A DNA stretch of 64,000 bases from a virus (IMGVR_UViG_3300021387_000147); one strand, 5' to 3'; positions 10,029 through 23,213 are shown, counted from the stretch's first letter. Made by a program: numbers and translations. Notes: generated from the sequence alone by a model not told the origin.

Positions 10029-10532
10029 TTATTCTCCTTCGGTATTCTTACCGATATTCATTATTTTAGTTAATTTCTCAAATCGTTTCATGTACCGAAT
10101 AAACGACTGAGCTTGATTTAAAAACTTATCTATTTTGTCAAATATGATTTCATCTGAAAAATCTGTATCATGTGTATATTCCAAATAATCAAATGGCATT
10201 CTGCCTGATTTCAAACGTTTACACATCTTAATCAGTGAAAATTTATTATCCAAAAACTGTGCTTCATCAGTCATATTATGAAATTGTAAATGCCATTTAG
10301 ATAATTCATCATTAGTTCTCTTAAAATCAGTTTCACTAAATGACAATTTCAAATTAAAACCATCTTCGAATATATCATAATAACCAATGATTTCATCATT
10401 CTTTTTAAGATAATCTTCTATGAGCTTCATATCAAATTCAACTTTGAATGATGCTACGATAGAAAGACGTGTTAAGAATTTATACTCAACACCTCTTTCA
10501 TCTAGAAAATTTGTCACATCAACGATATTCAT
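10029..10532 (-). CDS. hypothetical protein
   Basis: 167-aa ORF coupled to the VWA gene. Confidence 0.65.
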   Translation of the reverse strand: MNIVDVTNFLDERGVEYKFLTRLSIVASFKVEFDMKLIEDYLKKNDEIIGYYDIFEDGFNLKLSFSETDFKRTNDELSKWHLQFHNMTDEAQFLDNKFSLIKMCKRLKSGRMPFDYLEYTHDTDFSDEIIFDKIDKFLNQAQSFIRYMKRFEKLTKIMNIGKNTEGE

Positions 10533-11911
10533 TAACGGTCTTTCGAAATAGTTTCAACGTCCTTCATAGTCATAGAGTACTTGCACCATTCAGGAACGGG
10601 GTCAGCATTCTTAGACTGAATAATGAAGATAGGCATTTTAATGTTAGGCTTTTCCCAGCAGAACTGGCAGTCAGTAATGTAAACAATGCCATCGTAATGA
10701 AGTCCTTCCTTCTGAATTTTGTCGATAACGCACTGAGGATTAGTGCATCCACGACCACTCAAATCGAACTTCGTAGTCTTATAACGCTTTTCAGCAATCG
10801 GACCACATGCACCATCCCAGAAGCAGTAATGAACCTTTGCATGCTTGACGAAGTCATTCACAACCATGCAAGCCTTTTCAACTTCAGAGTCAGGCATAGA
10901 ACCAGAGCAGTCAATAGCGATAAGCACTTCAGCTTTCTGTTCATGACGAGGACCAGGCATAACACCAATCCACTTCTGACCATAACGACGAGGGAATTTC
11001 ATACGAGAGAAACTCATCACATCGGAGAAGACAGAAGTCGTAAATCTGCGAAGAGCAATACGAGGGTCAACAACCTGAGCATTCGCAGCCAAAATCTGCT
11101 GAGCAAGTCCACCAGGAAGATTGGACCAAGTAGAAGTACTTGCTTTGTTTACAGCCTGAGAAACCTGCTGGTCGACGATTTCATTTTCGCCCCAGCCATC
11201 AGTTGCAGTAGAGCCAGACTGAGAGAAGTGCTTTTTAAGTGCATCTTCTTCAGAACCAAATCCATTACCATTTCCACCTTGATCATTGCCCTGGTCACCA
11301 CCAGCGCCACCAGCTCCACCGTTAGCACCACCAAACTGCTTCTGCATCTGCTGATTATACTGTTCACGATTTTTCATGAAAATGTTGAAAATCTTTTCCA
11401 AATACATATCTTTCTGAGGATCAAAGCCAGGCGGAATAATCTGAGCGAAGTCATCGATAGAGGGGAAGAGGTCGTTAAGACGAACAGCATTCTGTCCCTT
11501 CTTACGATTTCCAACAGAATTCAATTCATTCAGCATCTTAGTGACTGTCATCGGAGAGCACACGATATTGGAAGAATTCCAACAAACATCGTAAGGTGCC
11601 ATCTTACGGGAAGTCACATGATGGAGCAAGAGTCGAAGAATTTCGACACAAGTCAATACAGTCAAAGTAATCGGATGAATAGCCTGAACGAATTCCTCAG
11701 TATATTCAAGAATAGGAACAGTATCAGACTTTGTATTCAATCGAATAGTCACCTTATCATTCTTAATAGGCTTACGCTGCATCATAGCGTAAAACTGAAG
11801 GAATGACGGATAGTCAAGCGAAATACGGCGGCAACAGAGTTCGAACTTCTTATCAGCAGAAAGAGCATAAACGTCTTCAGCACCCGTAGCAGTAGTCATA
11901 TTGTTAATCAT
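10532..11911 (-). CDS. VWA-domain protein with N-terminal metallopeptidase-like domain (MoxR partner)
   Basis: MIDAS DCSGS, GRGCT, YITD; Gly-rich linker. Confidence 0.85.
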   Translation of the reverse strand: MINNMTTATGAEDVYALSADKKFELCCRRISLDYPSFLQFYAMMQRKPIKNDKVTIRLNTKSDTVPILEYTEEFVQAIHPITLTVLTCVEILRLLLHHVTSRKMAPYDVCWNSSNIVCSPMTVTKMLNELNSVGNRKKGQNAVRLNDLFPSIDDFAQIIPPGFDPQKDMYLEKIFNIFMKNREQYNQQMQKQFGGANGGAGGAGGDQGNDQGGNGNGFGSEEDALKKHFSQSGSTATDGWGENEIVDQQVSQAVNKASTSTWSNLPGGLAQQILAANAQVVDPRIALRRFTTSVFSDVMSFSRMKFPRRYGQKWIGVMPGPRHEQKAEVLIAIDCSGSMPDSEVEKACMVVNDFVKHAKVHYCFWDGACGPIAEKRYKTTKFDLSGRGCTNPQCVIDKIQKEGLHYDGIVYITDCQFCWEKPNIKMPIFIIQSKNADPVPEWCKYSMTMKDVETISKDR

Positions 11912-12031: not shown

Positions 12032-13147
12032 TTATGCAAAAATCTGCTTCGTTTCAATATCCACCGAGTCACTCAAATCTGCCAAAATTATGGCCTTTTT
12101 GAACAAATCGTTGGCAGTTTTCAACATAATTCTACGCCATTCTGCTCGCTGATCTTCAGTAGCATTCGCTCGAAGCGTGCCATCCGGACGGTTAATCGAA
12201 ATAGACAATTCCTGAGAATTATTAGGTGTGCGGAAATAGCGGAAGCCATTGAGAGAATAATGGAATGAATTATCACATGCAAGCGTTTCATCCCAAGTCA
12301 TATCCATCTTATTTTCGCCATTATGCTTAAATTTCACATAGCCATTCAAATTAGTCGAAGACCTGTAATTGCCAGTCTGATCACCAATTTCCTTTTTAAT
12401 GTTAATGCTCAATTTTGTTTCATAATATGCAGTCGGATGCTTCAAAAATTCACTACGATTTCCAAATTCTTCAATAGAGAAACGGTAGCCATGTTCATAC
12501 GCATCAGGTGCATAAGTAGCCAATTCTTCATTCAATTCATTCAGCAAATTCATTCGCTTCATTTCCATAAACTTCTTGAACTTGCTTTCTTCACGTTCAA
12601 TCTGTGCCTTAACGCCTTCATCATTGCTCAGCTTCTTAGTATCAGCATTGAATTCCTTTGTAAAAGAACGCTTAACACTAGTCAAAATATCTTTGAACTG
12701 ATATGTGCGAACCCACTTGTCGTAGAAACAATAATGATTATAGTCCTTCTGAGAAGTCCAATTTCCTTTTCGATAAAGGCCATTAGACAAATTTTCAGGC
12801 TTCTTAGGCGCATAGAATTCATCGCTATCATCGCCAAGTTCACGAGTGACTACCAGCTTACCCGGAGTGCCATTGAAATAGGCCTCACGAATAATCATAT
12901 TTCCAGTTTCATCTGTAGTTGGATCAAAAGAAATACGAATGTCGATTTTACCCTTGAAAAAGCCAGAAGGACGATTTCTCTGCTTTGCACGTGCAGAGTC
13001 ATACGTAGGAATCAAATCTTCCTTTGTCAGAAGATAATTCTTGTAAGTCTTACCCTTACGGGAGACTTCATCCTTTTCGTATACAACCGTATCAAACTGG
13101 TTGCGGAACATAGTAAGTACTCTTTCTTCGTATTCTTTTGCGTCCAT
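12032..13147 (-). CDS. hypothetical early protein
   Basis: long ORF, probable start MDAKEY after GAGG. Confidence 0.7.
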   Translation of the reverse strand: MDAKEYEERVLTMFRNQFDTVVYEKDEVSRKGKTYKNYLLTKEDLIPTYDSARAKQRNRPSGFFKGKIDIRISFDPTTDETGNMIIREAYFNGTPGKLVVTRELGDDSDEFYAPKKPENLSNGLYRKGNWTSQKDYNHYCFYDKWVRTYQFKDILTSVKRSFTKEFNADTKKLSNDEGVKAQIEREESKFKKFMEMKRMNLLNELNEELATYAPDAYEHGYRFSIEEFGNRSEFLKHPTAYYETKLSINIKKEIGDQTGNYRSSTNLNGYVKFKHNGENKMDMTWDETLACDNSFHYSLNGFRYFRTPNNSQELSISINRPDGTLRANATEDQRAEWRRIMLKTANDLFKKAIILADLSDSVDIETKQIFA

Positions 13148-13174
13148 ATTTAACCTCTTTTTTTTACATTCCAA

Positions 13175-13269: not shown

Positions 13270-14154
13270 TTACGATTTGGAATCATATACTTTTTTCATT
13301 TGTTTGTAAGAATTCAAATTTTGTGGGCATCCTTGTCCACCGCCTGATTTCACTAAAGTGCACAAATCATATTGTGTCACTAATACAAAGTAATTTTCAA
13401 GCCATTCTATAACCTTTTCAAGATTATCAAAATCGAATTCGTAAGTATGAATTCCATCACCAGCATATACGTGCCAATAATAAAAATCATATTTCTTTAT
13501 ATAACATTGTGATATACTTGCTGTTGATGAATTAGGTCTATATCCATTTTCATTATTATAATTCTTTCTAAGACAATAATAAGCTAAATCACGTGGATAA
13601 TTAGGTGGTTCAACTGTAAATCCATATTTTTCACTAAATGATTGTATTATATCATCATTAGATAGATTACCGATTTTATTTTTCATTAAACGTTTCTTTT
13701 CAGCATCCATCTTTTCTTTACTTCTCTTATATGGAAGTTCAAATGTTTTAGTTAACTTCTCAATAAGTTTAGCAATAGTGCATGTGCAATTATATAATTT
13801 AATGGTATGTGCTCTCCATGTATTCACATCATCTTTACTATTACTTTCAATTATATCGATTAGTTTATAACATTTTTCATCTGGATCATTCTGTTCATAT
13901 TCTGATTTACCATTTAAGATTTGACCAAAAACTAAACAAACATTCCATTGATCATACTTATCAACACGAGTCAAAACATTAGTATATCTTAGAATAAACT
14001 TTTGTTTGTTATTCTGCACATACTGTCTATAATTATAAAAATTGTTTTCAAATACATATCCACTATATTCTTTGGAATGACCTGGAGTTGCATTGATTTC
14101 ATTTAAACTTGCTACGCATTCTGTTATCATAACCTTTCCTAAATGTTTTAACAT
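13270..14154 (-). CDS. hypothetical protein
   Basis: 294-aa ORF. Confidence 0.65.
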   Translation of the reverse strand: MLKHLGKVMITECVASLNEINATPGHSKEYSGYVFENNFYNYRQYVQNNKQKFILRYTNVLTRVDKYDQWNVCLVFGQILNGKSEYEQNDPDEKCYKLIDIIESNSKDDVNTWRAHTIKLYNCTCTIAKLIEKLTKTFELPYKRSKEKMDAEKKRLMKNKIGNLSNDDIIQSFSEKYGFTVEPPNYPRDLAYYCLRKNYNNENGYRPNSSTASISQCYIKKYDFYYWHVYAGDGIHTYEFDFDNLEKVIEWLENYFVLVTQYDLCTLVKSGGGQGCPQNLNSYKQMKKVYDSKS

Positions 14155-14167
14155 ATAGTTTAAATAT

Positions 14168-14196
14168 AAAAAAAGAGAGGTTTTTGTAAACCTCTC
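14168..14196 (-). terminator. terminator of the tRNA/ncRNA array (overlaps a TTTACA -35 box)
   Basis: GAGAGGTTT-ACAA-AAACCTCTC followed by T7 on minus strand. Confidence 0.7.
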
Positions 14197-14453
14197 AGAA
14201 TGTTATTCATTCTATTTAATTTGGTGAGCAACCAAAAAATCATGATACCGTCATCCAGAGGTATAACAACAGGCTATACATGGACCGATGAGCCAATCCC
14301 TAATACATCGCTTGGGTTGCTAATCATCTTTGCCTAAGTTCATCAAGTTTCTTAAAACTTGCAAATCAATTATTCTTCGGAGATGAATAACAGACTCATT
14401 GTTCGTTTATCAGTCATCAATATAAGCATATTATTGCTGTCAGTATCATTATA

Positions 14454-14526
14454 GGCCGATTATCCAGATTTGAACTGGATCCACTTCAGTCACAGTGAAG
14501 GATGCTACCCTTACACCATAATCAGC
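14454..14526 (-). tRNA. trnH: tRNA-His(GTG)
   Basis: cloverleaf; CTTCA-CTGTGAC-TGAAG; C73. Confidence 0.85.
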
Positions 14527-14537
14527 ATAAAATTCAA

Positions 14538-14665
14538 CAAGATACAGGTTTTTTACGTCTCTTAAACGCTTTAACCGTAGTTAACTTGTAGGATTTGAAC
14601 CTACTAACATTGCTTTTCAATTAATGTATTTACCGTTTGATTGAGTTGCTGTTTAACTGTATCTT
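14538..14665 (-). ncRNA. CAGCAA-wrapper RNA copy A (T-arm cargo)
   Basis: AAGATACAG..CAGCAA ... GTAGG-TTCAAAT-CCTAC ... CTGTATCTTG. Confidence 0.7.
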
Positions 14666-14673
14666 AAACTTTG

Positions 14674-14780
14674 CAAGATTCTGTTTTTCGTGACCTCTTG
14701 AACTTAATCAAGCGCTCTCAAATCTGAGCTACAGTTCCAATAATTGGCGGAATAGACAAATGAATTGCTGTCAGAATCTT
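14674..14780 (-). ncRNA. CAGCAA-wrapper RNA copy B (D arm + anticodon-arm cargo)
   Basis: AAGATTCTGACAGCAA ... TAGCTCAGATTTGAGAGC CTTGA-TTAAGT-TCAAG ... CAGAATCTTG. Confidence 0.7.
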
Positions 14781-14784
14781 TTAG

Positions 14785-14856
14785 CAGGAGTACTAGGATT
14801 CGAACCCAGACCGTGCAGTTTTGGAGACTCACATGCTGCCATAACACTTTACTCCT
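14785..14856 (-). tRNA. trnW: tRNA-Trp(CCA)
   Basis: cloverleaf; loop CTCCAAA. Confidence 0.85.
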
Positions 14857-15087
14857 AAATTGATTATATGATTTTGCCTTCTCTAACTATAGTATAATCG
14901 CTACGAATCTCATTTTTCTGCGCATATCAGAGATTATAGACTTTTGCACATCGACTTTTTTAGCTCACGATGATTGCATGAAGATCAAATGCTTCCGAAC
15001 CGTCAACTGTTTTAACTAGCCATAAACTATCAGGCCTCAGCCATGGGGAGTATCGCAGTCCCTTTCTTTTGACGAAGAAGCGGTTAG

Positions 15088-15158
15088 TTGCCGATACTCG
15101 GGTCGAACGAATACTAAGGGCTTCAGAGACCCCTGTGCTACCGCTACACCAATCGGCA
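15088..15158 (-). tRNA. trnQ: tRNA-Gln(CTG)
   Basis: GGGGT-CTCTGAA-GCCCT. Confidence 0.85.
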
Positions 15159-15162
15159 ATAA

Positions 15163-15294
15163 CAAGATATGTTTTTTGCTTTTTACGTGCTCTACCAATT
15201 GAGCTACAAATGAGGAACTTCCTCACTCGATGGGATTCGAACCCATAACACCGGTCTTAACAGGACATTGCGTTAGAGTTGCTGCACATATCTT
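15163..15294 (-). ncRNA. CAGCAA-wrapper RNA copy C (permuted tRNA mimic, GTT anticodon loop)
   Basis: order: GTC-CTGTTAA-GAC, T arm ATGGG-TTCGAAT-CCCAT, loop-closed acceptor hairpin, D arm TAGCTCAATTGGTAGAGC. Confidence 0.8.
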
Positions 15295-15308
15295 TAAACG
15301 CTACCTTA

Positions 15309-15427
15309 CTAGATGTTTTTACTGCTTCGGAACTTGGACTCGAACCAAGAATCTTCTCTTTAAATAAGAGGTGCTTTAACCTATTAAGCTATTCTGAAAA
15401 AAGTATTTCAGTTGCTGTTAACATCTA
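15309..15427 (-). ncRNA. CAGCAA-wrapper RNA copy D (complete tRNA-Lys-like cargo)
   Basis: TAGATGTTAACAGCAA ... normal-order cloverleaf, loop TATTTAA ... AACATCTAG. Confidence 0.75.
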
Positions 15428-15438
15428 AAAGATTTTAG

Positions 15439-15511
15439 AGCCCCATGTCAGGATCGAACTGACGACTACAGTTTGGAAGACTATCATGTTAAGCCACTAC
15501 ACTAATGGGAC
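15439..15511 (-). tRNA. trnG: tRNA-Gly(TCC)
   Basis: ATAGT-CTTCCAA-ACTGT; U73. Confidence 0.85.
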
Positions 15512-15518
15512 TTAGTAG

Positions 15519-15589
15519 ATCCCCGTGCGGGAATTGAACCCGCGCCTCAACCTTGGCAAGGTCGCTTGCTACCACTACAACAACGGGAA
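15519..15589 (-). tRNA. trnG: tRNA-Gly(GCC)
   Basis: CGACC-TTGCCAA-GGTTG. Confidence 0.85.
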
Positions 15590-15872
15590 TTAAAAAAATA
15601 TCTCTTACGGTGATTTAACGTTATCCTTACTCCCATAAGGAACAATCAAGAGATTTTGATTGGAATGTTCTCCCTAGCATCGAACATACAAGCTAACTAT
15701 CTTCACATGACTTATATCTTTCATCACTACAGGATAGCGTTTTTCCGATTTGCAACTGACCATCAATCAGTCATTTGCCATGTAGCATATAAATCAACTA
15801 CGTCGCTTCTAGTAATCAACTTATAAACACTTTATCGGGAAGATATTATATTTATAACTTTAAAATTTTTAG

Positions 15873-15960
15873 AGGAGGTGGTAGGATTCGAACCTACGGA
15901 GGGCTCATCACCCTCAACGGTTTTCAAGACCGTCACCATAATCCACTCGGTCACACCTCC
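15873..15960 (-). tRNA. trnS: tRNA-Ser(TGA)
   Basis: ACGGT-CTTGAAA-ACCGT, long variable arm. Confidence 0.9.
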
Positions 15961-15964
15961 ATAA

Positions 15965-16084
15965 CAAGATACGTTTTTCTTTGTAGCCTTATCCTACTAT
16001 TAGATGACGCCAACTACGTTGACGGTCGGACTTGCACCGACATACAGGCTTGGGGTCAAGAATATCAATTGCTGAATGTATCTT
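15965..16084 (-). ncRNA. CAGCAA-wrapper RNA copy E (YrlA-like permuted tRNA mimic)
   Basis: AGCCT / GTCGG-TGCAAGT-CCGAC / CGTCAAC-GTA-GTTGGCG / D arm / AGGCT. Confidence 0.8.
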
Positions 16085-16092
16085 AAAATTTA

Positions 16093-16222
16093 AGACCAAC
16101 GGTGGACTCGAACCACACCGGTATAGCAGTTGCGACAGCTACCCATTTAACTAGTGAAACACCACGTTTCTCGACTTCATATAAATTCGCAACTTTCTAG
16201 GAAGTCTATCACTACGCTGGCC
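16093..16222 (-). ncRNA. tRNA-ended structured RNA with kissing loops
   Basis: GGCCAGCG/CGTTGGTC stem, GTGG-TTCGAGT-CCAC T arm, complementary loops AGTTGCGA and TCGCAACT. Confidence 0.7.
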
Positions 16223-16236
16223 AAATATATTTATAG

Positions 16237-16310
16237 TGCTCCATACTGGGGTCGAACCAGTGTCAAAACCTTCGTAGGGTCTTATGCTTATTCCATTACA
16301 CCAACGGAGC
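16237..16310 (-). tRNA. trnR: tRNA-Arg(ACG)
   Basis: AGACC-CTACGAA-GGTTT. Confidence 0.85.
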
Positions 16311-16388
16311 AAACTGACAGTTTAGAATCATGTGATCATCTTATCGTGAACTGTCACTACGACCTAATGCCAATTAGGATTTTTATAG

Positions 16389-16472
16389 TGGCCAGGGAGG
16401 GATTCGAACCCTCACGCCCTTTCGGGCCAATGCTTCTAAGGCACTGTTGTCTACCAGTTTCAGCACCTGGCC
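16389..16472 (-). tRNA. trnL: tRNA-Leu(TAG)
   Basis: AGTGC-CTTAGAA-GCATT, long variable arm. Confidence 0.9.
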
Positions 16473-16480
16473 ATAATCTA

Positions 16481-16563
16481 CGGAGAGTGCAGGACTCGAA
16501 CCTACAAGGCCCGAGGGCCGGCACATTAGTAGTGTGCTGCCTTACCAATTAGGCTAACTCTCC
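16481..16563 (-). tRNA. trnS: tRNA-Ser(ACT)
   Basis: GGAGAGT acceptor, GCACA-CTACTAA-TGTGC, long variable arm, G73. Confidence 0.8.
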
Positions 16564-16578
16564 ACAAAGAGAAATTAT

Positions 16579-16712
16579 CAAGATACGTTTTCGCATCGAT
16601 CGCGTCTACCAATTTCGCCATTTCCCGATGTACCGGGAAAGATGGATTCGAACCACCACATCACTTAAGATAATCGTTTTCATAGCATTAAGTATATTGC
16701 TGTATGTATCTT
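16579..16712 (-). ncRNA. CAGCAA-wrapper RNA copy F (permuted Leu-type tRNA mimic)
   Basis: variable arm, GGTGG-TTCGAAT-CCATC, TTTCCCG-GTACAT-CGGGAAA, D arm TGGCGAAATTGGTAGACGC. Confidence 0.8.
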
Positions 16713-16840
16713 AAACACTCACCGGATTCCCGATTCTCCACCGGTCAAGATGTCTATCAACTGCCCATTCTATCGGTCGACTTCTTATAGGGTACAAACT
16801 CCATCTTGGTCATTTTATTGATCGTCTATGACTTTCTTAG

Positions 16841-16924
16841 AGCTGAGAGAGGGACTCGAACCCACGAAGAGTTTCCTCCACAGTTTTGCAGACTGTGTCC
16901 TTTGCCGCTCGGATTCACCTCAGC
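16841..16924 (-). tRNA. trnC: tRNA-Cys(GCA) with long variable arm
   Basis: ACAGT-CTGCAAA-ACTGT, GAG-GAAA-CTC extra arm, U73. Confidence 0.8.
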
Positions 16925-17006
16925 ATATAAATGAAGATTTATATTGAATAATTTAATGAGTTAAACTCTGGCGACGTACCTCCAACTCAATATAAATCTT
17001 GTTTAA

Positions 17007-17076
17007 TAACGGGGGTAGGTAACGCTCCTACGGAGGCAGGCTTATGAGACCCGCTGGAATACTTATTCGCCCCGCT
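17007..17076 (-). tRNA. atypical tRNA with CAT anticodon
   Basis: CGGGT-CTCATAA-GCCTG; shrunken D arm; T loop AGCGTTA. Confidence 0.55.
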
Positions 17077-17170
17077 CGTCTTTATATTTATAACAAACAC
17101 GTCCTCTGTTTTAAGTTTTTAACTATTACGCACAGAGTCAGAAGCGCAACAGCAATTGAATGCTGAATAG

Positions 17171-17245
17171 TCCCGGAGATAGGATTTGAACCTATGACGC
17201 ACAGATTATGATTCTGTCGCTCTGACCAAACTGAGCTACACCGGA
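17171..17245 (-). tRNA. tRNA-Met/Ile2(CAT)
   Basis: ACAGA-ATCATAA-TCTGT. Confidence 0.8.
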
Positions 17246-17259
17246 ATAATCTGTTTTAG

Positions 17260-17333
17260 TGCCTCCCCTGCGTGCCGCCCGCAGCTTCTCGGATTTTCAG
17301 TCCGGTCCAATCACTGGATTTGGATTGAGAGGC
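17260..17333 (-). tRNA. trnF: atypical tRNA-Phe(GAA)
   Basis: CGGA-CTGAAAA-TCCG; T loop GGCGGCA. Confidence 0.65.
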
Positions 17334-17383
17334 AAACTAGATTTTCTTTTGATTAGTGGAGAAAATTGTAAAGAACCAATTCG

Positions 17384-17456
17384 TGGACCCGAAGGGAATC
17401 GAACCCTTCACACTCGGCTTGCAAAGCCAAATCGCCTCCTTGGATCATGCGAGCCC
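17384..17456 (-). tRNA. trnA: tRNA-Ala(TGC)
   Basis: TTGGC-TTTGCAA-GCCGA; G3:U70. Confidence 0.8.
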
Positions 17457-17461
17457 ATAAA

Positions 17462-17523
17462 CTAGATACTTTTAGCGTTCAATTATAACCAATAATGTGC
17501 TAATAAGTTGCTGTATGTATCTA
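17462..17523 (-). ncRNA. CAGCAA-wrapper RNA copy G (minimal hairpin cargo)
   Basis: TAGATACATACAGCAA ... ATTA-TTGGTTA-TAAT ... GTATCTAG. Confidence 0.7.
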
Positions 17524-17536
17524 AAACTTTTAGTAG

Positions 17537-17614
17537 TCCAGCAGGTTGGACTCGAACCAACACATACCACTGTATCAGAGTGGCTGACAGATACCAATCG
17601 TCTATTGCCGCTGG
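17537..17614 (-). tRNA. trnI: tRNA-Ile(GAT), enlarged D region
   Basis: CCACT-CTGATAC-AGTGG. Confidence 0.75.
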
Positions 17615-17622
17615 ATAAAGTA

Positions 17623-17655
17623 GACGTATAATAATGTGATCAGCATTATATACGT
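17623..17655. repeat. perfect 13-bp hairpin
   Basis: GACGTATATAATG-7nt-CATTATATACGTC. Confidence 0.7.
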
Positions 17656-17922
17656 CAATGATCTATTTTACTATTTTTACTTAAACCCTGTAAGTCAACA
17701 GCCAAAAATAGTTAAGGCGGGAACCAGTTTTTTTAACGACACGAAAACTTCTTCTCATAAAAACAAACGTCCATAATATACATTAGTTTAGACTCATCAT
17801 CCTTAATATGGAATTAGTAGCATCGGAGTGTGTCCCATTTTTATCGGAAAAACTTGAACCATCAAAACGACTAGCATGCATGTTATAGAGTCCTCGCATA
17901 GCAGAGCTATCTCTTTGGGTAG

Positions 17923-17997
17923 TTCTCGGAGAAGGATTCGAACCTTCGACTTCCAACTTGTAAGGATGGCACTCTGAACCAACTGAGTTACCCGAGA
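17923..17997 (-). tRNA. trnV: tRNA-Val(TAC)
   Basis: loop CTTACAA, canonical D and T arms. Confidence 0.85.
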
Positions 17998-18007
17998 ATA
18001 AATTTAT

Positions 18008-18077
18008 CAAGATACATCTTTTATTCTGGAATCATTTTGTGTGATAGAAATAAAATTTGAGTTGCTGTGTGTATCTT
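18008..18077 (-). ncRNA. CAGCAA-wrapper RNA copy H (minimal)
   Basis: AAGATACACACAGCAA ... ATCA-CACAAAA-TGAT ... TGTATCTTG. Confidence 0.7.
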
Positions 18078-18085
18078 ATCTTTAG

Positions 18086-18158
18086 TACCCCTCCCGGGAT
18101 TCGAACCCGGATTATCGCATAGAAAGTGCGATGACCTAAACCGTTAGTCGAAAGGGGC
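18086..18158 (-). tRNA. trnE: tRNA-Glu(TTC)
   Basis: TCGCA-CTTTCTA-TGCGA. Confidence 0.85.
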
Positions 18159-18407
18159 AAAATTATCCATTGCTTCACGTCTGCCAATCTCTGTTATTGA
18201 AGCTCTTTGTTAAGGTGCCTTTCCACTGTCCTACCGAACTATGCAGTAGCGCTTTCAGCAAATTATTCTCGTCAGAAACTTAACTTCCCGGACTTAAATC
18301 TAAAATTACTTAATCGATGTTTTCATTTTAAATTCAATGGATAGTAAATGCGCAGGAAAATGACCGACCATGACCTTTCCGGAATATCACTATTGTATCA
18401 TTCTCCA

Positions 18408-18518
18408 ACAAATCATATATTCTTGTCGGGATATGAATGGACTCGAACCATCGACCTTTCTCTACTGAACGCTCTAACCAACTGAGCTACACACCCCTTA
18501 GTCCAATATATGATTTGT
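18408..18518 (-). ncRNA. tRNA body with truncated anticodon arm inside a 14-bp duplex
   Basis: ACAAATCATATATT/AATATATGATTTGT flanking intact D and T arms; anticodon arm reduced to TTC-AGTAGA-GAA. Confidence 0.7.
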
Positions 18519-18524
18519 AATTAG

Positions 18525-18598
18525 CGACACCGGAGGGATTCGAACCCTCGAAAGCCGGTTAGACAGACCGGTGGAATAGACCACTATCCGACGGTGCC
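18525..18598 (-). tRNA. trnD: tRNA-Asp(GTC)
   Basis: CCGGT-CTGTCTA-ACCGG; G73. Confidence 0.85.
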
Positions 18599-18739
18599 AT
18601 AAAAGAAATTAGTTATTGTAGACTACCTGAATTCATCCTATATGATAGCATTACTACAAATTAAAGAGCATTGAATAAGTACCGCGTCCTTAACATTAAG
18701 CGCCCTTGTCCGGCGGATGCGCTGCTCACCTAATTTTAG

Positions 18740-18815
18740 TAGCGGGTCTGGGAGTCGGACCCAGTATTGCGAAGCTTATGAGGCTTGCGTGATAAATCCG
18801 TTTCACTCACCCGCG
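18740..18815 (-). tRNA. trnM: tRNA-Met(CAT), initiator-like
   Basis: C1xU72 mismatch, CGCGGG acceptor, loop CTCATAA; lacks three G-C anticodon pairs. Confidence 0.7.
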
Positions 18816-18826
18816 ATAAAAGCATT

Positions 18827-18948
18827 TAATTCATTGGAAACCCCTTGTTTCTACTTGGCTGTAGGTATATTGAACTTTAACAAACAAAATTTATAAAGCT
18901 ATACCTACCGCCGGGATTTGAACCCAATTTTACGATAACAATGAATTA
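18827..18948 (-). ncRNA. T-arm-containing structured RNA
   Basis: TAATTCATTG/CAATGAATTA closing stem, GGG-TTCAAAT-CCC, GTAGGTATA/TATACCTAC stem. Confidence 0.6.
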
Positions 18949-18952
18949 TTAG

Positions 18953-19025
18953 CGCTGGAGGAGGGATCCGAACCCCCGACCGGTGCATTACAGGTGCACT
19001 GCTCTACCAACTGAGCTACTCCAGC
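18953..19025 (-). tRNA. trnT: tRNA-Thr(TGT)
   Basis: GTGCA-CCTGTAA-TGCAC. Confidence 0.8.
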
Positions 19026-19109
19026 TAAATGACCTCTTTGATACAGTCTAGAGTCGAGGTCAGTCCTCTAGTAAAGACCTAGTTTGTTTTGGCTCTAGGT
19101 CACCATTCG

Positions 19110-19182
19110 CTGTCCTTCCTGGACTCGAACCAGAGACTACTCGATTAACAGTCGAGTGTTCTACCAACTGAACTAAAGGACA
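19110..19182 (-). tRNA. trnN: tRNA-Asn(GTT)
   Basis: CTCGA-CTGTTAA-TCGAG. Confidence 0.9.
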
Positions 19183-19189
19183 ATAATAG

Positions 19190-19261
19190 TGGACCCATAG
19201 AGAATCGAACTCTACCATCAGTCGTGCAAGGACCAATCGCCTCCTTGGTACATGTGAGCCC
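19190..19261 (-). tRNA. trnA: tRNA-Ala(TGC), second copy
   Basis: TGGTC-CTTGCAC-GACTG; G3:U70. Confidence 0.8.
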
Positions 19262-19349
19262 AAATAATGTAATTGAAAATTAAATTGAGAATTCTTTAGC
19301 AAGTGAATTTCGAATATCTTGTGTTACGCCGGAATTTTTTAACAGGTTA

Positions 19350-19381
19350 AATATAATAATTATTAAAGAACTTGTAAACCC
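19350..19381 (-). promoter_or_regulatory. internal promoter of the RNA array
   Basis: GGGTTTACA-17-TATATT. Confidence 0.75.
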
Positions 19382-19454
19382 TGTTTATTAAAAAATCTTC
19401 CAATTTTTTTGTTGTTATATTATTTATATAACGAACATTTCAAATTTTGCAGAC

Positions 19455-19610
19455 TTAGTAGTCATAATTATTTGTTTTCTTTTCTTTAACTACTTTGATT
19501 CCTGCCTGTTTAGCAAAAGACTTTGCCAAGTTTCTCATTTGCTTCCAACGCTGTTCCTTTTCAGCCTGGATTTCTTCTTTTGTTTTCTTCACCTTAGTAT
19601 TCTTCTTCAT
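19455..19610 (-). CDS. small basic protein (51 aa) inside the tRNA array
   Basis: MKKNTKVKKTKEEIQAEKEQRWKQMRNLAKSFAKQAGIKVVKEKKTNNYDY; AAGGA RBS; not in ORF track. Confidence 0.6.
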   Translation of the reverse strand: MKKNTKVKKTKEEIQAEKEQRWKQMRNLAKSFAKQAGIKVVKEKKTNNYDY

Positions 19611-19634
19611 AAACAATTCCTTTTGTTAAACTTT

Positions 19635-19772
19635 CTAGATGCCTTTATTATCGTCCGCATGCTTTAACCACTTGCATACCTCTCCACGTTATGGAGAGTG
19701 AAGGATTCGAACCTCCGAAGTCGTGAGACCAGCGGTTTACATTGATAAATTTTGTATTGCTGAGTGCATCTT
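19635..19772 (-). ncRNA. CAGCAA-wrapper RNA copy I (permuted Tyr-type tRNA mimic)
   Basis: GTAAA-CCGC, variable arm GTC-TCAC-GAC, GGAGG-TTCGAAT-CCTTC, CTCTCCA-TAACG-TGGAGAG, D arm, GCGG. Confidence 0.8.
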
Positions 19773-19775
19773 TAG

Positions 19776-19853
19776 TCCACGGAGTAGGACTTGAACCTAC
19801 ACATAGGACCTTATAAGAGCCCCTGCCTGATACCAATCGGCTATTGTCCGTGG
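19776..19853 (-). tRNA. trnI: tRNA-Ile(TAT)
   Basis: GGGCT-CTTATAA-GGTCC; same enlarged D region as Ile(GAT). Confidence 0.75.
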
Positions 19854-19921
19854 ATAAAAATGATTTAATTTATTAACGCAGTTTACTCTGCTCCGAAGGA
19901 ATTGCACCTTCACATCTTTAG

Positions 19922-19992
19922 TTGTCCATGATGGAGTCGGACCACCGCCAAAGGATTCAAAGTCCCCTATACTACCGCTATACGAATGGACA
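19922..19992 (-). tRNA. trnQ: tRNA-Gln(TTG)
   Basis: GGGGA-CTTTGAA-TCCTT. Confidence 0.85.
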
Positions 19993-20295
19993 ATAAACAT
20001 CACGGCTCATCAACATAGTTGACATTTATAGTGCTGCCGAATATTTTTACACTTTACGATCTATGGTATCGATGGCCTTACATAGATTAACCTTCCAGTA
20101 AGAAAACCAGAGGTGGATTTGGAGACAAAATAAAACTTTAAACTATCTATATCACCCTAACTATTCTTTCATGGATTCGTCAGTTCCAATATTGGGTGTA
20201 ACCCGTCCAATATTACACTATTCACCAGACTTACCTTAGCTCTTTATGACTTAAGGTCGGTATTACTCAAATAGTCTACAGATAATTTAATTTAG

Positions 20296-20369
20296 TACTC
20301 CGAGAAGGGGTCGAACCTTCAACCTACGCTTTAGAAGAGCGTTGCTCTAATCCATTGAGCTATCGGAGC
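20296..20369 (-). tRNA. trnR: tRNA-Arg(TCT)
   Basis: ACGCT-CTTCTAA-AGCGT. Confidence 0.9.
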
Positions 20370-20375
20370 ATATTA

Positions 20376-20444
20376 CAAGATAGGTTTTTCTGCGTGTTAT
20401 TCCCAAAATGAATTTGCATAAGTATTTGTTGCTGTATCTATCTT
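20376..20444 (-). ncRNA. CAGCAA-wrapper RNA copy J (minimal)
   Basis: AAGATAGATACAGCAA ... ATTC-ATTTTGG-GAAT ... CTATCTTG. Confidence 0.7.
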
Positions 20445-20447
20445 TAG

Positions 20448-20521
20448 TAGTCCCATTTGGCGTCGAACCAAATTTTCCAGGTTGAAAACCTAGCGTCCTA
20501 ACCATCGTAGACGATGGGACC
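20448..20521 (-). tRNA. trnE: tRNA-Glu(TTC), second copy
   Basis: CTAGG-TTTTCAA-CCTGG. Confidence 0.85.
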
Positions 20522-20742
20522 AAAATGACTTTTTGTCACGTACTAAGTCTAAAAGCGCCTCGCAGAACCATTGTGTTGCCAGTCATTGTCGCGGTAATCT
20601 GGAGCTCGTAGAAAAGAAACCACTTCAGCCGCGATTCGATTTCTTCTCATTCACCATGCTACCGATTTAGGATGTCGGCATCTTCCGATATTACGCAGAC
20701 GAGGTTTGTACCTTTTACCTCCAAGCATGACTTTGTTTGTAG

Positions 20743-20815
20743 TGCCCCAGGAAGGACTCGAACCTTCAACCCACGGATTAAGAGTCCGCTGCGCTACCAA
20801 TTGCGCCACTGGGGC
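20743..20815 (-). tRNA. trnK: tRNA-Lys(CTT)
   Basis: GCGGA-CTCTTAA-TCCGT. Confidence 0.9.
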
Positions 20816-20940
20816 ATAAAAGTACCGACAATAAATCCATGTAAGCTTCCATTTCATTATTGCCTTGCTAGAAGTTCAACTGCATCGTGCGTATAGGATT
20901 CAAACCTTAATTGAACCTCTAACTAAAACTTTATTTGTAG

Positions 20941-21015
20941 TCGGAGTGGTAGGATTCGAACCTACGACTTCTTGAATCCAGATCAAGCACGCTGACCAGA
21001 CTGCGCTACACTCCG
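20941..21015 (-). tRNA. trnP: tRNA-Pro(TGG), atypical loop
   Basis: CGGAGTG acceptor; CTTGA-TCTGGAT-TCAAG. Confidence 0.75.
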
Positions 21016-21021
21016 ATTTAG

Positions 21022-21105
21022 TGGCCAAGGTGGGACTCGAACCCACACGGCATTACTGCCAAGGGATTTTAAGTCCCCAGTGTCTACCAATTCCACCACA
21101 AGGCC
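21022..21105 (-). tRNA. trnL: tRNA-Leu(TAA)
   Basis: GGGGA-CTTAAAA-TCCCT, long variable arm. Confidence 0.85.
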
Positions 21106-21322
21106 AAAAGAAAAATAATTCATTAACAAGTTAGTGCAGACTGTTTTCGTCCTACTCATCTGCATCCCGGGTGACTTTCGTGCCCTTGTTACATAGGATT
21201 TCATTTATATCACCTCACTCAGGTATAGCCGCCGTTATGCGCAATGACAAGCTGACTATTCAAGTAAGAACTTCTGTTCCTGGCAGGCCAATATGTCCAG
21301 CGAAGCAATGAATTATTTTTAG

Positions 21323-21398
21323 CTGGGAAGACAGGACTCGAACCTGTGAAAACTGGGGCATTAACAGTGCCGTGGCATACCAACTTGCCGACAACCCA
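21323..21398 (-). tRNA. trnN: tRNA-Asn(GTT), second copy
   Basis: GGCA-CTGTTAA-TGCC; acceptor mismatches. Confidence 0.7.
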
Positions 21399-21409
21399 AT
21401 AAATGATAG

Positions 21410-21493
21410 TGCCTGTGGGTGGATTCGAACCACCAAAGCCGAAAGGCACCGGTTTTACAGACCGGGGATGATCTCCAACTCATCAGCACAGGC
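21410..21493 (-). tRNA. trnY: tRNA-Tyr(GTA)
   Basis: CCGGT-CTGTAAA-ACCGG, variable arm. Confidence 0.85.
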
Positions 21494-21720
21494 ATAAAAA
21501 CTTTTGTAGGTTTAGAGAGTTCCTACTTCTCAGTGGGCTACCACCAAAGCATTCAGCCTTTTGAAGTCCTCAACTGTAGAGGGCGTTCCAACTTCTCCAG
21601 AACGAAGGCTGAAAAAGCCGTATGAGGGCAAAAAGCGCCGGCATACAAGATAAAACTTGCAGGAATTATTTTATATGCCTTTCACCGAATGAATATATTG
21701 ACTGCAATCAATATTTAGTG

Positions 21721-21797
21721 TAACCTCTAAGGGGATTCGAACCCACCGTTTCCCGACTCAACGTCGAGCGTCCTAGTCCATGCTAGACGACAGAGCA
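21721..21797 (-). pseudogene. degenerate tRNA (Glu-like body, TTG anticodon)
   Basis: CTCGA-CGTTGAG-TCGGG; imperfect acceptor and T stems. Confidence 0.5.
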
Positions 21798-21813
21798 TTC
21801 GGTTTTTTGTTAG

Positions 21814-21887
21814 TCGGGATAGAAGGATTCGAACCTTCGACCACTCCGCCCCAAACGGAGCGCTCTACCAGACTGAGCTACATCCCG
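21814..21887 (-). tRNA. trnP: tRNA-Pro(TGG)
   Basis: CTCCG-TTTGGGG-CGGAG. Confidence 0.9.
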
Positions 21888-21970
21888 CTGATTTTAGGCT
21901 CTTTCTTCCGCCACTGAGGAAGCGAACTTGGCTGATTGCGGCACACAGTACCTAAACTTTTTAATTTTAA

Positions 21971-22043
21971 TGGGCCAAGCGGGGATCGAACCCACGACTC
22001 CTACATTAAAAGTGTAGTACTCTACCAGCTGAGTTATTGACCC
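21971..22043 (-). tRNA. trnK: tRNA-Lys(TTT)
   Basis: CTACA-CTTTTAA-TGTAG. Confidence 0.9.
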
Positions 22044-22279
22044 AAAACTTCGTCCCTTACTCGAATATATGCATCTACTCTTTCGTGGGCTTGCATCCAT
22101 CTTTTCACTAAGTCAATCGGCTTCGAACCGATCTCTCCGGCATGACTTTTCTGGCCGGTGTTCCAACCCAATTCACTGTTTTCTTAGCAAATCAACTTCA
22201 ACCATTTTTGTTTGACAGAGTTTCATTCTCGCCTCCGCTTTATCTTCCCTATAGCAACGGAGAAAACCATAGCATGTAG

Positions 22280-22361
22280 TCGGTAGGGAGGGACTCGAAC
22301 CCTCACACCTTTCGGTACTGGATTTTGAGTCCAGCGCGTCTACCAATTCCGCCACCTACCG
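22280..22361 (-). tRNA. trnL: tRNA-Leu(CAA)
   Basis: CTGGA-CTCAAAA-TCCAG, variable arm. Confidence 0.9.
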
Positions 22362-22424
22362 ATAATTAATGCTCACCAAATTGTCAATCTTCAACTCAGT
22401 TTCTCGAACCGAATTACAAGAGTA

Positions 22425-23037
22425 AATTTACTAATTTCGATTTCTCTTGTCAACCCCTTTTCTGTAAAACATTCTTTACATTGAGGAGGATTTTTTCATT
22501 GAAAGTTTCACCGTAGTGACTCTTTCAATTTTGACAGGCTAAATATAAGTGATTATTTTCAGCTTGTCAACCCCTGATTTAGTAAAATTTTCTTTACATT
22601 CTCAAAGGCGTTTTCGTTATTTCATTGTCGACCGGACTCGGGCGGTTATTATTCCGTGTACCCGACTTGCATTTTCCTACGTGCGGCACACAGATTTTTT
22701 GCTTTTACAGCCAACCTTCATATTAGACCATTTTATTATCCATCCTTTTAACTACTCTAACAAAAGTGATGCAGTTCTTGTTGTTGTTTTACTGTTTGAG
22801 TGACTGCTCTAACTCATTCAGCTGTTTTATTTTAACAAGTAAAATATACTTAATTATTTGGCTCTTGTAAACCCTGTTTTTTGTAAAACTTTTTTTACAT
22901 TCGCCGTTTTCTTTGTGATTTTTAGCCATCAGCTTCAATCACAGGGTATAATATACCAAAAAAAGAGGGTCTTGGAAACCCTCTTTTCTGTAAATTTTTA
23001 TTTACAATCCTTTATGTTTTGTAAATGAATGTTTACA
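22425..23037 (-). promoter_or_regulatory. four tandem promoters, each with a TGTAAA-N6-TTTACA-type box, driving the RNA array
   Basis: -35 hexamers at 22448, 22565, 22866, 22973, all with 17-bp spacers; boxes at 22463, 22581, 22882, 22989, 23020. Confidence 0.8.
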
Positions 23038-23169
23038 CAATGAAGAGGGAACTACCTATATATTTAGGTAATCTATAATAATTCTTCAATTGTGGTATAT
23101 TATTCATTTTCATATCTTATTTATATAACGAACTTTTTAAAATTTGCAGTAAATAAAAACTAAAAATAA

Positions 23170-23195
23170 AAACCTACTCTTGCGAGTAGGCTTTT
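23170..23195. terminator. intrinsic terminator after carbamoyltransferase
   Basis: CCTACTC-TTGC-GAGTAGG flanked by A and T runs. Confidence 0.7.
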
Positions 23196-23213
23196 ATCAT
23201 TGAATAAAGAAAA

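What the first reader, a model, noticed from the sequence alone, without database searches (positions are those of the whole stretch)
15163..19772. Four circularly permuted tRNA mimics derived from different tRNA types
Seen: copies C (15163-15294), E (15965-16084), F (16579-16712) and I (19635-19772) read T arm, then acceptor stem closed by a loop, then D arm, the reverse of tRNA order. F has a Leu-type D loop and variable arm. I is Tyr-type, with GTAAA left at the junction and CCGC/GCGG as anticodon stem. C keeps an Asn-like CTGTTAA loop. Known: this T-AS-D topology is that of YrlA RNAs; permuted tRNA genes occur in some algae and archaea. Inference: repeated independent permutation of different tRNAs gives elbow mimics that cannot be aminoacylated unless the acceptor loop is cut and the RNA re-ligated.
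Basis: partly seen in the sequence, partly recalled or inferred. Interest (0 to 1): 0.85.

Follow-up and report, generated by a model that had tools for sequence, protein, structure and literature searches.

The report
Phage Y-like RNAs with tRNA-mimic bodies
Four small RNAs hidden between this rumen-type phage's tRNA genes are rearranged tRNAs (ends moved to the anticodon side, acceptor end closed) held in a shared stem-plus-CAGCAA "handle"; they belong to a widespread, undescribed phage relative of bacterial Y RNAs that elsewhere sits beside a Ro60-like protein.

Summary
On the minus strand, the strand of the 30-tRNA array, copies C, E, F and I each read T arm, loop-closed acceptor stem of 7 bp or more, then D arm. 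A model built only from such domains in other phages finds all four (E 3e-13, 2e-7, 1e-3, 8e-3). They are under selection. Against a ~90% identical relative the cores differ at 1 of 321 bases, versus 12.6% in other spacers. C's acceptor stem shows double compensatory swaps.

They are not free-standing permuted tRNA genes. Each sits in a covarying terminal stem with a 5' CAGCAA and an A-rich 3' strand. That handle also encloses empty, normal-order and otherwise permuted cargo, here and in many phages. It lies on the tRNA strand (40 of 40). It clusters upstream of phage Ro-like (DUF2828) genes (75 hits versus 7 downstream).

Best reading: YrlA-like tRNA mimics of a new phage Y-RNA-like family. 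No Ro-like gene was found in this 47%-complete record, so the partner is inferred. YrlA membership fails on score and on the Rsr-binding motif.

This scan had already noted the same handle family on other phage DNA. I retested its claims here.

The parts
15164..15294 (-). Element C, whole handle RNA. 5' arm 15286-15294, CAGCAA 15279-15284, A-rich strand 15173-15184, 3' arm 15164-15172.
   Evidence: the 9-bp terminal stem is predicted in the MFE fold (z = -3.4)
15189..15266 (-). C tRNA-like body. Anticodon hairpin GTC-CTGTTAA-GAC 15254-15266, T arm 15230-15246, closed acceptor 15207-15229, D arm 15189-15204.
   Evidence: R1 54.7 bits, E 2.7e-13; YrlA model 35.7 bits; compensatory acceptor changes in L120 and L251
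15966..16084 (-). Element E, whole handle RNA. 5' arm 16078-16084, CAGCAA 16069-16074, 3' arm 15966-15972.
15985..16050 (-). E tRNA-like body. Anticodon-stem strands 16046-16050 and 15985-15989, T arm 16025-16041, closed acceptor 16008-16024, D arm 15991-16005.
   Evidence: R1 19.3 bits, E 1.4e-3; body invariant in L120 and L121; one A-to-G change in L251 keeps a G.U pair in the T stem
16580..16712 (-). Element F, whole handle RNA. 5' arm 16706-16712, CAGCAA 16697-16702, 3' arm 16580-16586.
16597..16676 (-). F tRNA-like body, Leu type. Anticodon-stem strands 16673-16676 and 16597-16601, variable arm 16660-16671, T arm 16641-16657, closed acceptor 16621-16640, D arm 16602-16618.
   Evidence: R1 33.0 bits, E 2.4e-7; D arm 95% identical to tRNA-Leu(CAA); no change in the body against L121, while the linkers differ
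19637..19771 (-). Element I, whole handle RNA. 5' arm 19766-19771 (AGATGC), CAGCAA 19757-19762, 3' arm 19637-19642 (GCATCT).
   Evidence: the stem covaries with the other copies
19655..19740 (-). I tRNA-like body, Tyr type. GTAAA 19736-19740, anticodon-stem strands 19732-19735 and 19655-19658, variable arm 19717-19731, T arm 19700-19716, closed acceptor 19679-19699, D arm 19660-19676.
   Evidence: nhmmer E 6.3e-5; R1 16.6 bits, E 7.9e-3; 148 of 149 identical in the 294-kb relative L251

Best explanation
C, E, F and I are four members of a family of small non-coding RNAs. They are transcribed with the phage's tRNA array and are probably released by the RNase P and 3'-end cuts that free the flanking tRNAs.

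Each RNA has two modules.
1. A 'handle': a 7-9 bp stem formed by the 5' and 3' ends, followed by a conserved single-stranded (A)CAGCAA on the 5' side and an A-rich run on the 3' side.
2. A cargo. In these four copies it is a tRNA body whose chain enters and leaves at the anticodon stem and whose acceptor stem is closed by a short loop. The T-loop/D-loop elbow and the 7+5 bp acceptor/T stack are kept. This is the architecture of YrlA-type bacterial Y RNAs.

Shown here:
- the structure;
- purifying selection and compensatory changes;
- the family's recurrence on the tRNA strand in many phages;
- the family's linkage to phage Ro-like (DUF2828 / TROVE+vWA) genes in other genomes.

Inferred:
- In this phage the handle is bound by such a Ro-like ring protein, encoded in the missing half of the genome or by the host.
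- The tRNA-shaped module makes the particle look like tRNA to tRNA-handling enzymes or tRNA-directed defence nucleases. It may also stabilise the RNA.
- The 7-bp acceptor stems make RNase P cleavage of the closing loop and CCA addition plausible, as in M. smegmatis YrlA. That would give a two-piece RNA held together by the handle.
For: Structure and statistics.

Selection:
- Cores differ at 1 of 321 bases against L121. Handle arms and linkers differ at 20 of 303, other spacers at 192 of 1518.
- C's acceptor stem has T-A to G.U (L120), and T-A to A-T plus G-C to A-T (L251).
- E's T stem goes A-U to G.U. B2's stems covary.

Handle is an RNA of the tRNA strand:
- The stem covaries.
- All 40 instances with a tRNA within 300 nt are co-oriented with it.

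Recurrence: 33 distinct handle instances with a T arm plus closed acceptor from many IMG/VR contigs.

Link to Ro-like proteins:
- DUF2828 or TROVE was found in 4 of 4 handle-bearing phage records that are at least 90% complete. The background is 707 of 50,697 phage records.
- Around 80 DUF2828 genes, handle hits number 75 upstream on the same strand against 7 downstream.
- A handle with T-acceptor-D cargo lies directly upstream of the gene in L156.
- E. coli phage ekra and Listeria phage LMTA-34 carry handles next to the gene.
- The DUF2828 profile hits the solved phage TROVE protein 9KOP/9L5Y, and homologs are annotated 'Ro-like RNA binding protein'.

Literature:
- YrlA biology and RNase P/CCA processing (PMC4201824).
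- The Ro60-like Bas63 gp130, next to tRNA genes, counters the ppl defence (10.1101/2024.10.10.617714).
- Three highly transcribed regions lie upstream of the Rsr-like gene of a P100-like phage (PMC12282133).
- Phage Ro60 binds Yrl RNAs and host PNPase (PMC12135203).
Against: - No Ro-like gene exists in the 141.7-kb record. This was tested with Pfam TROVE, Pfam DUF2828, a 3-sequence profile and a 65-sequence profile. The record is only 47% complete, and the 294-kb relative could not be searched.
- The genes just downstream of the array are not Ro-like.
- The YrlA model scores C below its threshold and misses E, F and I.
- The YrlA 5' motif GNCGAA is absent.
- There is no expression or binding data for this phage.
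- Binding of the CAGCAA handle by any Ro-like protein has not been shown anywhere.
Confidence: 0.62

Rival explanations
1. They are true circularly permuted tRNA genes. The precursor is cut at the handle, circularised, and opened at the acceptor loop to give decoding tRNA-Asn, tRNA-Tyr, tRNA-Leu and so on.
For: Joining the chain ends would restore a canonical loop in I (CTGTAAA) and a complete anticodon arm in C. ARAGORN accepts C and F as intron-containing tRNAs when they are duplicated in tandem. The bodies are conserved.
Against: E and F have no anticodon loop. The same handle encloses empty cargo, a normal-order tRNA and other permutations. There is no bulge-helix-bulge motif. No RtcB, Rnl1, Rnl2 or splicing endonuclease was found in the record. 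Standard Asn (two copies), Tyr and Leu (three copies) genes are already present.
Confidence: 0.05
2. They are Ro-independent decoys. The handle merely stabilises the RNA, and the tRNA body titrates a host tRNA-directed nuclease or tRNA-processing enzyme.
For: No Ro-like gene in the record. Anticodon loops or whole tRNA bodies are displayed in many cargos. The real tRNA genes of this lineage are hypervariable, with compensatory changes, as expected in a conflict over tRNAs.
Against: The CAGCAA strand is conserved across distant phages, which argues for a specific binding partner. The handle is strongly linked in position to DUF2828 genes elsewhere.
Confidence: 0.2
3. They are non-functional remains of tandem tRNA duplications, or DNA-level repeats such as MITE-like or recombination sites.
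For: The closing loops look like the array's short inter-tRNA spacers (N73 followed by TA). The T-acceptor-D model also hits ordinary tRNA-tRNA junctions. This fits an origin from tandem copies.
Against: Cores diverge at 0.3% against 12.6% in spacers. There are double compensatory and G.U-preserving changes. Strand concordance with tRNAs is 40 of 40. The architecture recurs in unrelated phages.
Confidence: 0.03

Closest known systems
YrlA (Y RNA-like A; Rfam RF02553), partner of Rsr/Ro60 in bacteria and mycobacteriophages (PMC4201824)
   Same: A terminal stem made by the 5' and 3' ends. A conserved single-stranded motif next to the stem on the 5' strand. A tRNA-like module in the order T arm, closed acceptor-like stem, D arm, with the chain ends on the anticodon side. 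In other phages the gene lies upstream of, and co-oriented with, a Ro-like gene. A 7-bp acceptor stem, as in the RNase P-cleaved M. smegmatis YrlA.
   Different: The handle motif is (A)CAGCAA plus an A-rich 3' strand, not GNCGAAN0-1G. C scores 35.7 bits against the 69-bit threshold, and E, F and I get no hit. The elements are embedded in a tRNA array in many copies with interchangeable cargo. Some cargos keep a whole anticodon hairpin or a long variable arm. No Ro gene is present in this record.
Yrl1/Yrl2 of Thermus phage phiLo, bound by phage Ro60 (PDB 9KOP, 9L5Y; PMC12135203)
   Same: Phage-encoded Y-like RNAs upstream of a phage TROVE+vWA protein. The DUF2828 profile hits this protein.
   Different: Those RNAs carry the CGAA motif and no tRNA-like module is described for them.
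Circularly permuted tRNA genes of Cyanidioschyzon merolae and Thermofilum pendens
   Same: The 3' half precedes the 5' half, the halves are joined at the acceptor end, and the leader and trailer pair with each other.
   Different: Those systems use a bulge-helix-bulge motif, a splicing endonuclease and a ligase, and they yield essential decoding tRNAs. Here there is no such motif or enzyme, two copies lack an anticodon loop, and the isoacceptors are redundant.
Class I RNAs of dictyostelid amoebae (Rfam RF01414; PMC7919456)
   Same: A short terminal stem, then a conserved motif ending in CA-CAA next to the 5' strand of the stem (positions T3, C6, C9, A10, A11 are conserved), then a variable remainder.
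   Different: They are eukaryotic and 42-65 nt long, with no tRNA-like cargo. The Rfam model gives no hit here at E up to 5. This is a resemblance only.

Membership tests
YrlA (RF02553) | tRNA-like module in the order T arm, closed acceptor-like stem, D arm, with the chain ends on the anticodon side | tested here: met
YrlA (RF02553) | Score at or above the Rfam gathering threshold (69 bits) | tested here: not met
   C scores 35.7 bits; E, F and I give no hit at E up to 5
YrlA (RF02553) | 5' motif GNCGAAN0-1G, the presumed Rsr contact (PMC4201824) | tested here: not met
   The 5' strand next to the stem reads (A)CAGCAA in all four copies
YrlA (RF02553) | Encoded next to a Ro60/Rsr (TROVE) gene | tested here: inconclusive
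   None in the 141.7-kb record. The record is 47% complete, and the 294-kb relative could not be searched.
YrlA (RF02553) | Bound by Rsr; carries pseudouridine 55 and dihydrouridine made by TruB and DusA | not testable with these tools
   Needs immunoprecipitation and modification mapping
Phage CAGCAA-handle Y-like RNAs (undescribed; defined in this scan) | Covarying terminal stem, 5' CAGCAA, A-rich 3' strand and a stem ending ...TCT(T)G | tested here: met
   All four copies. Covariation across 54 instances and 16 aligned short members.
Phage CAGCAA-handle Y-like RNAs (undescribed; defined in this scan) | Lies in or next to a phage tRNA array on the tRNA strand | tested here: met
   40 of 40 co-oriented
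Phage CAGCAA-handle Y-like RNAs (undescribed; defined in this scan) | The genome encodes a Ro-like DUF2828 or TROVE+vWA protein, usually downstream and co-oriented | tested here: inconclusive
   Met in 4 of 4 other records that are at least 90% complete, and by the 75 versus 7 positional asymmetry. Not found in this incomplete record.
Circularly permuted tRNA genes (algal and archaeal type) | 3' half upstream of 5' half, joined at the acceptor end | tested here: met
Circularly permuted tRNA genes (algal and archaeal type) | Leader and trailer form a bulge-helix-bulge motif cut by a splicing endonuclease; a ligase is present | tested here: not met
   The handle is a 7-9 bp stem with an asymmetric loop. 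PF01974, PF01139, PF09511 and PF09414 are absent from the record.
Circularly permuted tRNA genes (algal and archaeal type) | Joining the ends restores a complete anticodon arm | tested here: not met
   Possible for C and I only. E and F have no anticodon loop.
Dictyostelid Class I RNA (RF01414) | Match to the family model | tested here: not met
   No RF01414 hit at E up to 5 over 14100-23300

The most novel reading that the evidence does not exclude
The CAGCAA handle is a modular display scaffold. The phage loads it with bodies of different tRNAs, here Asn-, Tyr- and Leu-type with the acceptor end closed. A Ro-like ring, possibly with a host exonuclease, then presents them as baits or adaptors against tRNA-directed immune nucleases. 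Alternatively, after RNase P cutting and CCA addition, the RNAs become two-piece chargeable tRNA-like molecules tethered to the ring. The contrast seen here fits an arms race fought over tRNA: the mimic cores are invariant while the real tRNA genes are hypervariable.
Probability: 0.2. Interest if true: 0.85.

Novelty: new variant of a known kind. Interest (0 to 1): 0.64.

Why it matters
Bacterial Y RNAs that mimic tRNA are known from one family (YrlA), and their function is still unclear. This window shows a second, much more modular solution. One conserved handle carries tRNA bodies captured from several different tRNA types, and these bodies are kept under strong selection inside a phage tRNA array.

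The same handle sits beside Ro-like proteins in cultured phages: Felixounavirus on E. coli K-12 and P100-like Listeria phages. One such protein, Bas63 gp130, has been reported to counter a defence system. The likely RNA partners of that protein can therefore be named and tested directly.

The result also warns annotators that 'spacers' in phage tRNA arrays hold conserved RNAs that tRNA finders miss.

Tried and rejected
- The first IMG/VR pattern scan for the 5' handle was too loose and gave mostly chance hits. A two-sided pattern worked.
- My first local pattern for L024 had one N too many and missed the sites.
- ARAGORN on tandem-duplicated elements found nothing for E and I.
- Ro-like gene in this record: Pfam TROVE, Pfam DUF2828, a single protein, a 3-sequence profile and a 65-sequence HMM were all negative.
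- ORF 10532-11911 looked promising because of its MIDAS motif DCSGSM and a weak hhalign match to the vWA part of DUF2828. Its homologs carry PF13203 (DUF2201_N), so it is a metallopeptidase-like vWA protein and not Ro-like.
- ORFs 13270-14154 and 12032-13174 give no Pfam, PHROG or Atlas lead.
- Relatives found through the tail sheath are all small fragments.
- The 294-kb ENA relative cannot be searched whole. No DUF2828 homolog among the best 120 lies on a contig of that length.
- MAFFT misaligned the inner handle pairs, so RNAalifold saw only 5 pairs.
- The divergence count against L121 first looked wrong, because real tRNAs came out at 25%. Inspection showed the tRNA genes really are replaced or diversified.
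- Self-cleaving ribozyme flanks were considered. There is no Rfam ribozyme hit apart from a chance-level twister-sister match at E 4.6.


Full report
**Context.** The window is part of an IMG/VR virus record of 141,742 bases that CheckV rates 47% complete. The phage is a myovirus: it has a tail sheath gene. Between 14155 and 23213 the minus strand carries 30 ARAGORN tRNAs. The spacers hold many tRNA-like pieces.

**Observation.** Read on the minus strand, C, E, F and I each begin with a stem arm (AAGATAY or AGATGC). A few bases later comes CAGCAA, then a linker. Next come a T arm, an acceptor stem closed by a 3-7 nt loop, two bases, a D arm, and the 5' strand of an anticodon stem. Each ends with an A-rich run and the complementary stem arm followed by G.

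- C also keeps a 3-bp hairpin with the loop CTGTTAA. Its chain leaves the anticodon stem between positions 28 and 29.
- I breaks inside the anticodon loop. Joining its ends would give CTGTAAA.
- E and F have an anticodon stem but no loop.
- F and I have long variable arms.

Statistics:
- An HMM of the window's own tRNAs matches the 3' part upstream of the 5' part in C. It matches the 3' part in F and I.
- F's D arm is 95% identical to tRNA-Leu(CAA).
- ARAGORN finds a tRNA across the junction of tandem-duplicated C and F.
- The Rfam YrlA model aligns end to end with C at 35.7 bits, E 6e-5.

As an independent test I built a covariance model from ten T-acceptor-D cores taken only from other phages. 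In the whole window it scores C 54.7 bits (E 2.7e-13), F 33.0 (2.4e-7), E 19.3 (1.4e-3) and I 16.6 (7.9e-3). It also hits ordinary tRNA-tRNA junctions, where the two acceptor strands do not pair. That fits an origin of the closed acceptor from tandem copies of one tRNA. It also shows that pairing is the feature that distinguishes the four elements.

**Selection.** Two near-identical contigs (L120, L121) and a 294-kb relative (L251) carry the elements.

Divergence against L121:

| Region | Differences |
|---|---|
| tRNA-like cores | 1 of 321 |
| Handle arms and linkers | 20 of 303 |
| Other spacers | 192 of 1518 |

- C's acceptor stem exists in three versions that all pair. One pair goes T-A to G.U in L120. 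In L251 two pairs are swapped on both sides (T-A to A-T, G-C to A-T) and two G.U pairs become Watson-Crick.
- E's only body change turns an A-U pair of the T stem into G.U. That is a mismatch if read on the other strand.
- I is 148 of 149 identical in L251.

These are structured RNAs of the tRNA-sense strand, not debris.

**The handle family.** The same stem-plus-CAGCAA handle occurs at least eleven times in this array. It encloses empty cargo (17461-17525, 18008-18079, 20376-20444), a normal-order tRNA (15300-15437), and other tRNA pieces (B1, B2).

- IMG/VR scans recover it in many unrelated contigs.
- Its inner stem pairs covary.
- All 40 instances with a tRNA within 300 nt are co-oriented with it.
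- Thirty-three distinct instances carry a T arm followed at once by a closed 7-bp acceptor. Others show closed acceptor-D-anticodon-T, or T-acceptor-D-anticodon, or normal order.
- L145 repeats C's design, with a break at 28/29 and a retained hairpin, but with a Thr loop.

So the four copies are one recurring cargo class of a modular RNA family. They are not four isolated permutation events of free genes.

**Partner.** Earlier notes of this scan proposed that this handle goes with a Ro60-like DUF2828 protein. I tested that.

- Of five other handle-bearing records, the three DUF2828-positive ones are 90-100% complete. The fourth complete one has a weak TROVE+vWA gene. The 54%-complete record has none.
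- DUF2828 homologs occur in only 707 of 50,697 INPHARED phages. In mycobacteriophages they are annotated 'Ro-like RNA binding protein'.
- A profile of three members hits the solved phage TROVE protein 9KOP/9L5Y.
- Around 80 DUF2828 genes from IMG/VR, a handle detector gives 75 hits upstream on the gene's strand against 7 downstream. It gives 30 on the opposite strand and 23 in shuffled DNA.
- In L156 a handle with T-acceptor-D cargo ends about 25 bases before the gene.
- In E. coli phage ekra four handles follow the gene. One has T-acceptor-D cargo (R1 26.3 bits).
- In Listeria phage LMTA-34 three handles lie directly upstream of the gene, and an RtcB-type ligase lies 1.3 kb downstream.

Published work fits this picture:
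- YrlA RNAs mimic tRNA and sit beside Ro60 genes, including in 22 phages (PMC4201824).
- Bas63 gp130 is Ro60-like, lies next to tRNA genes and counters the ppl defence. Its authors guessed that some 'tRNAs' are Y RNAs (10.1101/2024.10.10.617714).
- A P100-like phage has three very highly transcribed regions within 2 kb upstream of its Rsr-like gene (PMC12282133).
- A Thermus phage Ro60 binds phage Yrl RNAs and host PNPase (PMC12135203).

I found no paper that describes the CAGCAA handle or its tRNA-derived cargos.

**Limits for this phage.** No Ro-like gene exists in the 141.7 kb available. An ORF with a MIDAS motif turned out to be a DUF2201-type protein. The long relative could not be scanned. 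The partner is therefore inferred by family membership only.

**Against true permuted tRNA genes.**
- E and F cannot regain an anticodon loop.
- The handle is not a bulge-helix-bulge motif.
- No RtcB, Rnl1, Rnl2 or splicing endonuclease was found.
- The array already has standard Asn, Tyr and Leu genes.

**Mechanism.**
- Shown: fold, conservation, strand and family linkage.
- Inferred: release by the tRNA-processing cuts at the neighbouring tRNAs; binding of the handle by a Ro-like ring; the tRNA body acting as mimic, bait or stabiliser.
- The 7-bp acceptor plus 5-bp T stack is the RNase P determinant that distinguishes the cleaved, CCA-tailed M. smegmatis YrlA. In 3 of 23 cores from other phages the closing loop encodes N73-CCA, against 0.23 expected. 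A two-piece, CCA-ended form is therefore plausible.

**Verdict.** The elements are a new variant of the Y-RNA/YrlA kind, already met by this scan on other phage DNA.

Noticed in passing
window 14784-14856, 15438-15511, 15872-15960, 16480-16564, 16840-16924 versus L121: Real tRNA genes (Trp, Gly-TCC, Ser-TGA, Ser-ACT, Cys) differ by 25-40% between otherwise ~90-100% identical phage genomes. The anticodon is unchanged, the stems are rewritten in a compensatory way, and the flanks are identical. This looks like allele swapping or diversifying selection on tRNA bodies. The mimic cores, by contrast, are invariant.
   Followed up: partly
window 15300-15437 (-): A normal-order tRNA sits inside a handle (TAGATGTT...CAGCAA ... 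AACATCTA). ARAGORN calls it tRNA-Stop(tta) here but Lys(ttt) in the L251 homolog, so the anticodon register is ambiguous.
   Followed up: partly
window 14536-14667 (B1) and 14676-14781 (B2), minus strand: Two further handle RNAs with tRNA-derived cargo. B1 has a T arm plus a short closed stem. B2 has a short closed acceptor, a D arm and an anticodon-like arm, and its stems covary in L251.
   Followed up: partly
window 17461-17525, 18008-18079, 20376-20444 (-): Handle RNAs with short AT-rich cargo and no tRNA-like part. They fill the spacers between tRNAs exactly.
   Followed up: partly
window 19154-19214, 21370-21434, 18467-18549, 20983-21046 (-): The T-acceptor-D model also hits junctions of adjacent ordinary tRNAs separated by 5-10 nt. 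The closing loops of F, I and E read N73 followed by TA, like the array's tRNA trailers. This suggests the permuted bodies arose from tandem tRNA copies.
   Followed up: partly
window 10532-11911 (-): A 459-aa protein with a vWA MIDAS motif (DCSGSM). Its homologs carry PF13203 (DUF2201_N). It lies 2.2 kb downstream of the array and is co-oriented with it. It is not Ro-like.
   Followed up: yes
window 60301-60404 (-): cow-rumen-2 RNA (RF02947), 98.4 bits, well above its threshold.
   Followed up: no
window 17366-17440, 19779-19850, 18428-18496 (-): tRNA-like genes missed or only partly called. One is Ala-like with an odd D region. One is Ile(TAT)-like at 27 bits. One is a tRNA with a shrunken anticodon arm (Rfam 47.9 bits, not called by ARAGORN).
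   Followed up: no
L255 (Listeria phage LMTA-34) 2645-2925 and 5841-7052; L254 (E. coli phage ekra) 6700-7600: Cultured phages carry the same handle next to their DUF2828 gene. LMTA-34 also has an RtcB-type 'tRNA-splicing ligase' 1.3 kb downstream, which recalls the bacterial rsr-yrlA-rtcBA operon.
   Followed up: partly
cores in L180, L199, L144 (alignment A2): In 3 of 23 T-acceptor-D cores from other phages the closing loop starts N73-CCA, against 0.23 expected (p 0.0016). This hints that the loop is opened to expose a CCA end.
   Followed up: partly
window 14454-22361 (-): The tRNA genes encode no CCA. Most end N73-C followed by TA, and most are preceded by TTAT.
   Followed up: no
own record, 5 sites, e.g. 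window 19300-19350 and 22400-23100 (-): A repeated promoter-like motif GGGTT(T/G)ACAAG, followed about 17 nt later by a TATA-rich box, lies upstream of array segments.
   Followed up: no
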